Positions 14,252 through 14,489 of a DNA stretch of 15,617 nt are shown here, one piece after another (positions within the stretch are counted from its first letter, which is position 1; every line of letters starts with the position of its first letter). The stretch is from IMG/VR virus record IMGVR_UViG_2698536519_000007, positions 1 to 15,617 of that record; one strand, written 5' to 3'. The DNA comes from a virus (taxonomy: Duplodnaviria > Heunggongvirae > Uroviricota > Caudoviricetes). The translations under genes were made by a program, and so were the position numbers. The notes beneath the pieces were generated by a model that searched no databases, was not told where the DNA came from, and saw only the letters and a program-made list of their open reading frames with translations.

Positions 14252-14263
14252 AAGCGAAAAAAT

Positions 14264-14293
14264 CCCGCAGTGCTCACGGACAGGAACTGCGGG
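14264..14293 (-). terminator. Perfect 8-bp hairpin; on the minus strand it is followed by a T-run (terminator-like for leftward transcription)
   Basis: CCCGCAGT (14264-14271), 14-nt loop, ACTGCGGG (14286-14293). The + strand has AAAAAA immediately 5' (14257-14262), which is a T-tract 3' of the hairpin on the minus strand. Confidence 0.35.
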
Positions 14294-14425
14294 AGCGTTA
14301 CGAAGATTGAGTGTAAGGAATTATTCTTATGTCACGACAAAAAACATTAACGCAGAGAAATTATTAGCGCCACAGTCAGTTTGTGAAAATGTGAAGATAT
14401 TCAGAATTTTTATTCAGTCATGATA

Positions 14426-14458
14426 CAGGCATCCTCCGGGATGCCTGTTGTTTTTGTG
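14426..14458 (+). terminator. Rho-independent terminator about 30 nt upstream of J
   Basis: CAGGCATCC (14426-14434), loop TCCG, GGATGCCTG (14439-14447), then TTGTTTTTGTG. Confidence 0.55.
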
Positions 14459-14489
14459 CGTAACAGTTATCACAGTAAAGGGTGAGACA

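What the first reader, a model, noticed from the sequence alone, without database searches (positions are those of the whole stretch)
14252..14489. ORF-poor AT-rich island with hairpins on both flanks between tail genes I and J
I and J are separated by about 238 bp of visibly AT-rich sequence inside an otherwise GC-rich, tightly coupled tail operon. It is bracketed by a perfect 8-bp hairpin at its left edge (terminator-like on the minus strand) and a strong intrinsic terminator at its right edge (+ strand), 30 nt before J. That layout resembles a moron cassette, but the only ORFs are tiny, such as a 12-codon ORF at 14328-14366 (MSRQKTLTQRNY) with AAGGA about 10 nt upstream. It could be a small RNA, a micro-protein or leader peptide, or the scar of a decayed moron. 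I could not find a convincing sigma70 promoter by eye.
Basis: partly seen in the sequence, partly recalled or inferred. Interest (0 to 1): 0.5.

Follow-up and report, generated by a model that had tools for sequence, protein, structure and literature searches.

The report
Prophage small-RNA gene between tail genes
The AT-rich gap between tail genes I and J holds a backward-facing small regulatory RNA gene of the PasB/EcOnc22 family, already detected in pathogenic E. coli, so the finding is real but largely known.

Summary
A 238-bp spacer (14252-14489) has 41% GC against about 60% in genes I and J, with a hairpin at each edge.

It is not ORF-poor junk. The left two-thirds is a complete small-RNA gene on the minus strand. 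It has a sigma-70 promoter (TTCACA-16-AATAAT, 14387..14360), an RNA body of about 83-97 nt, and an intrinsic terminator (stem 14263-14270/14287-14294 plus U6) that ends 6 nt after the I stop codon.

The whole spacer aligns with the I-J spacers of EPEC E2348/69 PP6 and of EHEC Sakai Sp15, Sp14 and Sp11. RNAs from this exact place and strand have been detected there: PasB (83 nt) and EcOnc22/23/24 (~85 nt). All are Hfq-dependent, and PasB has 37 RIL-seq partners. Their targets are unvalidated.

Phage lambda has only a 60-nt junction, so the cassette is an sRNA "moron". The right-hand plus-strand hairpin has a positional counterpart in lambda and belongs to the ancestral junction, not to the cassette. 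The 12-codon ORF is not conserved.

New here:
- PasB and EcOnc22-24 are one family, which the papers I read do not state.
- Every unit carries a CRP-like box (TGTGA-N6-TCAGA) at fixed spacing.
- Other phages carry 2-4 tandem units, or a sodC gene, at the same site.

Interest is low to moderate.

The parts
14257..14353 (-). PasB/EcOnc22-family small RNA gene. The 5' end is about 14353 if predicted from the consensus promoter. It is about 14338 if mapped from the published, coverage-based 5' end of EPEC PasB. The 3' end falls in the U-tract at about 14257.
   Evidence: End-to-end alignment with EPEC PP6 and Sakai Sp15 spacers. PasB coordinates and probe. EcOnc22/23/24 table entry and probe. Identity is 71% to PasB, 69% to EcOnc22 and 93% to the commonest IMG/VR variant. 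The fold has z = -2.9.
14263..14294 (-). Intrinsic terminator of the sRNA: an 8-9 bp stem (14263-14270 with 14287-14294) and a 16-nt loop, followed on the minus strand by U6 (14262..14257). It ends 6 nt from the I stop codon.
   Evidence: The stem is invariant in 24 aligned variants, so those give no covariation information. One divergent variant, L047, carries a compensatory G-C to A-T change.
14302..14319 (-). Most conserved single-stranded part of the RNA and the candidate seed: ...UCCUUACACUCAAUCUUC.... It contains the family motif (U/C)AAUCUUC and the anti-Shine-Dalgarno-like UCCUU.
   Evidence: Alignment A3 shows ATCTT invariant and CTCCTT/TTCCTT nearly so. Zhu et al. 2026 place the PasB seed just upstream of the terminator.
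14360..14387 (-). Sigma-70 promoter of the sRNA: -35 TTCACA (14387..14382), 16-nt spacer, -10 AATAAT (14365..14360). The -10 is TATAAT in EPEC and most variants. A second, weaker TAnnnT element (TAATGT, 14349..14344) lies 7 nt before the published EPEC 5' end.
   Evidence: scan: 10/12 here, 11/12 in EPEC; both elements are conserved at fixed spacing in 56 distinct promoter variants.
14387..14413 (.). Conserved block AAATGTGAAGATATTCAGAATTTTTAT holding a CRP-like site. The core TGTGA-N6-TCAGA (14390-14405) matches 9 of 10 positions of TGTGA-N6-TCACA. It is centred 44.5 bp upstream of the promoter-predicted start, or about 60 bp upstream of the published 5' end.
   Evidence: It is the only match with at most 1 mismatch in the 15.6-kb window, where 0.58 are expected. 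It is present in 122 of 136 PasB-type terminator-anchored IMG/VR places (my tally), as 6 variants that differ only in the N6 spacer. Each unit of the tandem arrays has its own copy. Binding was not tested.
14425..14458 (+). Plus-strand hairpin (10 bp, loop 4) followed by UGUUUUUGUG. This is the junction hairpin and terminator-like site just upstream of the J ribosome-binding site. It is not part of the sRNA cassette.
   Evidence: One stem pair varies as C-G (49), T-A (23), T.G (6) and C.A (2) across places. Lambda and lambda-like prophages have an unrelated-sequence hairpin at the same position.
14329..14367 (+). 12-codon ORF (MSRQKTLTQRNY). It is a chance ORF lying across the sRNA 5' region and promoter.
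   Evidence: It has no ATG in EPEC and is deleted in Sakai Sp15. An ORF of at least 10 codons is kept in only 6 of 46 distinct variants.

Best explanation
The spacer is a lambda-type I-J junction into which a self-contained small-RNA gene has been inserted in the antisense orientation. This is a moron whose cargo is an sRNA.

How it works:
- Transcription: host RNA polymerase starts at a sigma-70 promoter on the minus strand (-35 at 14387..14382, -10 at 14365..14360). It transcribes leftwards and stops at the intrinsic terminator that abuts the stop codon of I. The product is an RNA of about 83-97 nt ending in a stem-loop plus a U-tract.
- Action: by homology with PasB (EPEC) and EcOnc22/23/24 (EHEC Sakai), this RNA is made in the lysogen independently of the late operon and is stabilised by Hfq. 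It acts in trans by pairing with mRNAs through the conserved unpaired stretch just 5' of the terminator (UCCUUACACUCAAUCUUC).
- Regulation: a conserved CRP-like box upstream of the promoter probably ties its synthesis to cAMP-CRP.
- Right hairpin: the plus-strand hairpin and U-tract 32 nt before J is a separate feature. It is the junction hairpin that lambda also has.

Shown: the anatomy, the homology, the synteny, and published expression and Hfq dependence of the homologs.

Inferred: expression of this particular variant, the exact 5' end, the seed, and CRP control.
For: Anatomy:
- A minus-strand promoter and minus-strand terminators are found by the scan.
- The RNA folds with a terminator stem and U6.

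Homology and synteny:
- The whole spacer aligns with EPEC PP6 (mean column identity 89% over spacer plus gene flanks) and with Sakai Sp15.
- PasB lies on NC_011601 at 1466343..1466261, minus strand, between the I and J homologs. Its Northern probe matches the window at 14262-14284.

Published expression of the homologs:
- PasB falls by log2 -6.8 in the table of wild-type versus delta-hfq comparisons and ranks 15th with 37 RIL-seq partners.
- EcOnc22/23/24 give a band of ~85 nt and are destabilised in delta-hfq.
- Their probe matches the tail-sense strand next to the left hairpin.
- Their published peak coordinates land on the PasB-equivalent body once the 128-bp offset between Sakai genome versions is applied. 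Three independent probes agree with that offset.

Family:
- 47 distinct RNA variants share the terminator, the AAUCUUC and CUCCUU motifs, and promoter spacing.
- Lambda has only 60 nt at this junction.

CRP-like box:
- PasB is higher in overnight LB than in DMEM, while the RNA Spf is about 5-fold higher in DMEM. Spf is known to be repressed by cAMP-CRP (established knowledge).
Against: - No expression data exist for this exact variant. It is only 71% identical to PasB and 69% to EcOnc22, and its -10 is AATAAT rather than TATAAT.
- The 5' end is ambiguous. The consensus promoter predicts an RNA of about 97 nt, whereas the EPEC paper gives 83 nt, so there may be processing or a second promoter.
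- The terminator stem never varies among the 24 aligned variants, so covariation adds nothing.
- The CRP-like box sits at -44.5 or about -60. Neither is exactly the canonical -41.5 or -61.5, and the LB-versus-DMEM difference has many other possible causes.
- No target of any family member has been validated.
- Rfam has no model for the family, so there is no independent family score.
Confidence: 0.85

Rival explanations
1. The minus-strand RNA works mainly in cis. It is perfectly complementary to the I-J intercistronic part of the late polycistronic mRNA. It could therefore trigger cleavage of that mRNA or damp J synthesis. Conversely, the late transcript could soak up the sRNA when the prophage is induced.
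For: Full complementarity follows from the gene's position and orientation inside the late operon. The antisense orientation is kept in all homologous places examined, including arrays of 2-4 units.
Against: The RNA ends 6 nt outside the I coding sequence and starts more than 130 nt before the J ribosome-binding site, so it covers no translation signal. RIL-seq found 37 partners elsewhere in the genome, which points to trans action. The site also accepts unrelated cargo such as sodC, so orientation may simply avoid read-through. This role could coexist with the trans role.
Confidence: 0.15
2. A second, plus-strand small RNA or leader starts in the conserved central block and ends at the 14425-14458 terminator, forming a divergent pair with the minus-strand RNA.
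For: The plus-strand terminator-like hairpin is strong (z = -4.05) and conserved with one covarying pair. The alternative 'long' right-hand module in other phages also carries a plus-strand terminator-like hairpin.
Against: No plus-strand promoter passes the scan. No tail-sense Hfq peak is listed at this junction in Sakai. The stored part of the EPEC RIL-seq interaction table contains neither flanking-gene locus tag. Lambda has a hairpin at the same place with no room for an RNA gene.
Confidence: 0.08
3. The spacer is a non-functional scar: a decayed moron or recombination junction whose hairpins and promoter-like sequences are relics.
For: The junction is mosaic, with left and right halves recombining independently. 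In sodC-bearing phages the same RNA body survives without its -10 element. The window's prophage carries IS insertions and may be defective.
Against: Promoter, terminator, spacing and motifs are conserved across 47-56 distinct variants. Homologs are among the more abundant Hfq-bound RNAs in two pathotypes. An identical spacer occurs in at least 30 listed Stx1a- and Stx2c-converting phage records.
Confidence: 0.05
4. The 12-codon ORF (14329-14367, plus strand) encodes a micro-protein or leader peptide.
For: An ATG lies 9 nt after an AAGGA.
Against: The ORF is kept in only 6 of 46 distinct variants. The ATG is absent in EPEC and in the commonest variant, and the region is deleted in Sakai Sp15. 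The AAGGA is the complement of the sRNA's conserved UCCUU.
Confidence: 0.02

Closest known systems
PasB sRNA of EPEC O127:H6 E2348/69 (Pearl Mizrahi et al. 2021, PMC8550237; Zhu, Shabalina and Storz 2026, bioRxiv 10.64898/2026.05.13.724894)
   Same: It sits at the same locus, between tail assembly protein I and J of a lambdoid prophage, and in the same antisense orientation. The terminator stem (CCCGCAG/CUGCGGG plus a U-tract), the promoter architecture and the central block are the same. The whole 238-bp spacer aligns with it.
   Different: The RNA body is only 71% identical, and the 5' half and terminator loop differ. The -10 is AATAAT rather than TATAAT. Zhu et al. describe PasB variants as differing by only a few nucleotides, so this more distant variant was probably outside their BLAST-defined set.
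EcOnc22/23/24 of EHEC O157:H7 Sakai prophages Sp15, Sp14 and Sp11 (Tree et al. 2014, PMC4104026)
   Same: They occupy the same I-J junction, strand and terminator. They give a band of ~85 nt, are bound by Hfq in CRAC and are destabilised in delta-hfq. Their targets are unknown.
   Different: They are 69% identical to the window's RNA and have a shorter body (a deletion in the 5' part). Their right-hand module carries TCAGACA repeats before J. Neither Pas paper I read links PasB to EcOnc22-24; the equivalence was worked out here.
Morons of lambdoid phages (Juhala et al. 2000), including the sodC gene found at this same junction
   Same: It is an extra, autonomously transcribed unit (promoter, cargo, terminator) lying between two genes that are nearly adjacent in lambda. 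It is AT-richer than its surroundings.
   Different: The cargo is a non-coding RNA rather than a protein. It is transcribed against the late operon.
AgvB/AsxR anti-sRNAs of EHEC prophages (Rfam RF02702, RF02703)
   Same: They are prophage-encoded, short, Hfq-binding RNAs of pathogenic E. coli with a variable 5' part and a conserved 3' part.
   Different: They lie elsewhere, downstream of PR' near the lysis genes, and have different sequence. There was no Rfam hit here. No sponge activity is known for PasB or EcOnc22.

Membership tests
PasB / EcOnc22-24 prophage sRNA family | Located in the spacer between tail genes I and J of a lambdoid prophage, and transcribed antisense to them. | tested here: met
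   I and J are confirmed by Pfam. The window's promoter and terminator are on the minus strand.
PasB / EcOnc22-24 prophage sRNA family | Sequence homology to the validated RNAs across body and terminator. | tested here: met
   Alignments A1-A3. Identity is 71% to PasB and 69% to EcOnc22, and the window falls among 47 distinct family variants from Sakai, EPEC and IMG/VR. The published Northern probes map to the homologous positions.
PasB / EcOnc22-24 prophage sRNA family | [quoted passage not shown] | tested here: met
   An 8-9 bp stem plus U6. The stem is invariant across variants.
PasB / EcOnc22-24 prophage sRNA family | Expressed as an RNA of about 83-85 nt whose stability depends on Hfq. 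| not testable with these tools
   This is known only for the EPEC and Sakai homologs. No expression data for this variant could be consulted.
Moron (autonomous insert in a phage operon) | Own promoter and terminator, absent from the same junction in related phages, with deviant composition. | tested here: met
   The lambda junction is 60 nt against 238 nt here. GC is 0.41 against 0.60.
CRP-dependent promoter (class I or class II) | A TGTGA-N6-TCACA site. | tested here: met
   TGTGAAGATATTCAGA matches 9 of 10 core positions and is unique in the window. The half-sites are invariant and the spacer is variable across 6 variants and in every tandem unit.
CRP-dependent promoter (class I or class II) | Site centred near -41.5 (class II) or near -61.5, -71.5 and so on (class I) relative to the transcription start. 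| tested here: inconclusive
   The centre is at -44.5 from the start predicted by the TTCACA-16-AATAAT promoter. It is at about -59.5 to -60.5 from the start implied by the published EPEC 5' end. The true start is unknown.
CRP-dependent promoter (class I or class II) | Transcription depends on cAMP-CRP in vivo, or CRP binds in vitro. | not testable with these tools
   There is only a correlation. PasB is higher in overnight LB than in DMEM, and Spf goes the other way.
AgvB/AsxR anti-sRNA family | Match to Rfam RF02702 or RF02703, and location downstream of PR' in the moron site near the lysis genes. | tested here: not met
   No Rfam match at E up to 1 in 13900-14900, and none at gathering score in the whole window. 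The location is in the tail operon.
Intrinsic terminator (right-hand hairpin, plus strand) | A GC-rich stem directly followed by a U-rich tract on the transcribed strand. | tested here: met
   10 pairs (6 G-C), loop of 4, tail TGTTTTTGTG. The fold has z = -4.05. Whether it terminates anything in vivo is not testable here.

The most novel reading that the evidence does not exclude
The I-J junction of lambdoid prophages may be a dedicated landing pad for a modular, cAMP-CRP-gated sRNA cassette: CRP box, promoter, sRNA and terminator. The cassette diversifies its 5' and seed region and can be stacked in arrays of up to four paralogs. Because each RNA is also the exact antisense of the late I-J transcript, the module could link host carbon status both to host mRNA control in the lysogen and to tail-tip (J) expression or sRNA titration on induction.
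Probability: 0.12. Interest if true: 0.55.

Novelty: new member of a known kind. Interest (0 to 1): 0.3.

Why it matters
The gene family is already on record, so the main value is correct annotation. A spacer that genome pipelines leave blank encodes an Hfq-dependent sRNA. All 30 listed phage records annotate nothing under it, and the listed RefSeq E. coli genomes annotate at most the start of gene J.

Some part of this spacer is found in about a third of complete E. coli genomes (1730 of 5426). It also occurs in many Shiga-toxin phages.

Three points could help people working on these RNAs:
- PasB (EPEC) and EcOnc22-24 (EHEC) are the same family, so their data sets can be pooled.
- The family is much more diverse than a few single-nucleotide variants. 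There are 47 distinct RNAs, in arrays of 2-4 units.
- A CRP-like box at fixed spacing gives a directly testable hypothesis for when the RNA is made.

Tried and rejected
- AgvB/AsxR lead. My first guess, from memory, was that the island might be an anti-sRNA of this type. I rejected it because those lie downstream of PR' and Rfam gave no hit.
- Sakai coordinates. Taken at face value in NC_002695.2, the published EcOnc22/23/24 peaks fall on the right-hand hairpin, antisense strand. This is a genome-version offset. The current record is 5,498,578 bp (the older length, 5,498,450 bp, is from memory), a difference of 128 bp. The probes for EcOnc01, EcOnc04 and EcOnc42 all agree with +128. After correction the peaks sit on the PasB-equivalent body.
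- EcOnc22/23/24 probe. An exact search with up to 3 mismatches failed in Sp15. The first 23 nt match exactly in the alignment, and the remainder differs, possibly through PDF text extraction or consensus probe design.
- Covariation in the sRNA terminator. It is uninformative because the stem is invariant in the 24 aligned variants.
- 5'-3' pairing. The pairing GCGUUA/UAACGC seen in the window's fold is not conserved in EPEC or Sakai variants, so I did not count it as family structure.
- Plus-strand promoter for a second RNA. None was found.
- Micro-ORF. Rejected by comparison.
- Lambda hairpin. It folds but is not flagged as a terminator by the scan, so I call it a hairpin with a T-rich tail, not a proven terminator.
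- Genome-contig scan. Most matches were in contigs of unrelated genera (Shewanella, Pseudomonas and others). Twelve of them share an upstream sequence with the lambda I-J junction, so I read them as lambda DNA contamination. They were useful only as lambda sequence.
- Terminator-pattern scan. Some matches were in unrelated phages and were discarded.

Full report
**What is in the sequence.**

Gene I (Pfam Lambda_tail_I) ends with TAA at 14249-14251. Gene J (GpJ FNIII-A and Phage-tail_3 domains) starts with ATG at 14490. The 238 bp between them have 41% GC, against 60% in I and 59% in J. Local 100-nt windows fall to 34%.

- At the left edge, TCCCGCAG (14263-14270) pairs perfectly with CTGCGGGA (14287-14294). 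The stem is preceded by A6. Read on the minus strand, this is a stem-loop followed by U6.
- At the right edge, a 10-bp hairpin (14425-14448) is followed by TGTTTTTGTG on the plus strand. Its fold has z = -4.05.

**Identity.**

The spacer is 100% identical to at least 30 listed Stx1a- and Stx2c-converting phage records. Part of it occurs in 1730 of 5426 complete E. coli genomes. None of the listed records annotates anything in the spacer itself.

A literature search led to PasB, one of five prophage sRNAs found by Hfq RIL-seq in EPEC E2348/69. Table S6 of Pearl Mizrahi et al. 2021 places it at NC_011601 1466343..1466261, minus strand, 83 nt, between E2348C_1436 and E2348C_1437. The probe is AATCCCGCAGTGATCGCGGAGCT. 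Those two genes are the I and J homologs. The 240-bp EPEC spacer aligns end to end with the window's spacer. The probe corresponds to window 14262-14284 on the plus strand, so the RNA is on the minus strand. PasB falls by log2 -6.8 in the table of wild-type versus delta-hfq comparisons and has 37 RIL-seq partners.

In EHEC Sakai, Tree et al. 2014 list EcOnc22/23/24 in prophages Sp15, Sp14 and Sp11. These give a Northern band of ~85 nt, are destabilised in delta-hfq, and lie on the strand opposite to the tail genes. Their probe matches the tail-sense strand right next to the left hairpin of the Sp15 spacer.

Their published peak coordinates at first seemed to fall on the right-hand hairpin. This is a genome-version offset of 128 bp. 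The probes for EcOnc01, EcOnc04 and EcOnc42 all agree with it. After correction the peaks cover the PasB-equivalent body.

A 2021 review still lists the targets of EcOnc22 as unknown. That equivalence was worked out here.

**Family and anatomy.**

Two pattern scans of IMG/VR were run, one anchored on the central block and one on the terminator. Together with the fetched genome loci, they gave 47 distinct RNA variants and 56 distinct promoter variants.

All of them share these features:
- the terminator CCCGCAG...CUGCGGG plus a U-tract;
- an unpaired AAUCUUC motif and a CUCCUU-like motif just 5' of the terminator;
- a U-run near the 5' end;
- a -10 element that is TATAAT in most variants;
- strictly conserved spacing from the central block to the -10.

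The window's RNA is 71% identical to PasB, 69% to EcOnc22 and 93% to the commonest variant.

The terminator stem is invariant in the 24 aligned variants, so covariation is uninformative there. One divergent variant shows a compensatory G-C to A-T change.

The 5' end is uncertain.
- The consensus promoter (11/12 match in EPEC) predicts a start at 14353, giving an RNA of about 97 nt.
- The published EPEC end maps to about 14338. That is 7 nt after a second conserved TAnnnT element at 14349..14344.
- Processing of a longer primary transcript, or two promoters, would each reconcile these.

**Why it is an insertion.**

Lambda itself, and lambda-like prophages of Escherichia and Shigella, have only 60 nt between I and J. 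Those 60 nt contain a hairpin (AAACCGCC-UGCG-GGCGGUUU) with a T-rich tail about 25 nt before J. The scan does not flag it as a terminator.

The window's right-hand hairpin is the positional counterpart of that element. It has one stem pair that varies as C-G, T-A or T.G across phages. The extra ~180 bp is the sRNA cassette. It has its own promoter, cargo, terminator and deviant composition, which is the definition of a moron, here with an RNA as cargo.

The junction is a hotspot.
- About 14 places keep the window-type RNA body but replace everything from the -10 onwards with a minus-strand Cu/Zn superoxide dismutase gene (Sod_Cu, E = 3.9e-32) and its terminator.
- Others carry a different, longer right-hand module.
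- Some carry two, three or four tandem sRNA units.

**The central block.**

The best-conserved part of the spacer is AAATGTGAAGATATTCAGAATTTTTAT (14387-14413). Its core TGTGA-N6-TCAGA matches the CRP consensus at 9 of 10 positions. It is the only such match in the window, where 0.58 are expected in 15.6 kb.

In the terminator-anchored set, which was not selected for the block, 122 of 149 matched places have it at 124-133 nt from the terminator. After setting aside 13 chance matches in unrelated phages (my tally), that is 122 of 136 PasB-type places; the other 14 are the sodC type. The six variants differ only in the N6 spacer. Each unit of the tandem arrays has its own copy. This ties the block to the minus-strand promoter rather than to J.

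Its centre lies at -44.5 from the predicted start, or about -60 from the published one. Neither is exactly canonical.

PasB is higher in overnight LB than in DMEM, while the RNA Spf is about 5-fold higher in DMEM. Spf is known to be repressed by cAMP-CRP (established knowledge). This pattern is compatible with cAMP-CRP activation of PasB but is far from proof. Zhu et al. 2026 do not discuss promoters or CRP.

**Rejected readings.**

- The 12-codon ORF (14329-14367) lacks an ATG in EPEC, is deleted in Sp15, and is kept in only 6 of 46 variants. Its apparent AAGGA ribosome-binding site is the complement of the sRNA's UCCUU.
- A plus-strand sRNA ending at 14458 lacks a promoter and has no reported Hfq signal at this junction.
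- A pure scar is hard to square with the conserved architecture and the abundant homologs.
- A cis-antisense role against the late I-J transcript cannot be excluded and may coexist with trans action.

**Verdict.**

It belongs to an already described but functionally uncharacterised family, PasB/EcOnc22-24, of which it is a divergent member.

The modest new points are the unification of the two published names, the breadth and tandem organisation of the family, the alternative sodC cargo at the same site, and a conserved CRP-like box that makes regulation testable.

Noticed in passing
L092:250-1260 (IMG/VR UViG_2728369607_000007); also L169, L082, L042, L057, L096: Between I and J, some phages carry tandem arrays of two to four paralogous sRNA-like units. 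Each unit has its own terminator, a diverged body, a promoter and a TGTGA-N6-TCAGA block. In L092 the blocks are at 451, 672, 904 and 1121, and J starts at 1230.
   Followed up: partly
L025:327-900 (minus strand); same arrangement in L008, L161, L165, L172, L174-L177, L179, L182, L185, L187: A Cu/Zn superoxide dismutase (sodC) gene with its own terminator occupies the same I-J junction on the minus strand. The window-type sRNA body and terminator remain downstream of it, but the -10, -35 and CRP-like block are gone. There the RNA could only arise as a sodC 3' UTR product, or it is a relic.
   Followed up: partly
window 3320-5935 (minus strand) and 1083-1844 (plus strand): A complete IS66-family element lies upstream of the tail genes, with ORFs of 225, 115 and 523 aa (HTH_Tnp_1, TnpB_IS66 and DDE_Tnp_IS66). 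An IS110-family transposase ORF lies there too. The prophage in this window is probably defective.
   Followed up: partly
L002:992-1100 (Sakai Sp15, read on the tail-sense strand) and the Sakai-type right-hand modules: In the Sakai-type junction, the stretch between the hairpin and the J ribosome-binding site contains TCAGACA heptad repeats. Their copy number varies from about 2 to 5 between phages. The window's type lacks them.
   Followed up: no
NC_002695.2 compared with the coordinates in Tree et al. 2014, Table S2: All chromosomal EcOnc coordinates checked here (at 1.94, 2.19 and 2.92 Mb) are consistent with a 128-bp shift relative to the current RefSeq record of Sakai. Anyone mapping these sRNAs onto NC_002695.2 without correction will place them about 128 bp off, in this case onto the wrong hairpin.
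   Followed up: yes
L188:446-508 (phage lambda 15445-15507): Lambda's own 60-nt I-J gap folds into a stable hairpin with a T-rich tail about 25 nt before J. Nothing is annotated there in J02459. Its role (terminator, mRNA stabiliser or processing site) is unknown to me.
   Followed up: partly
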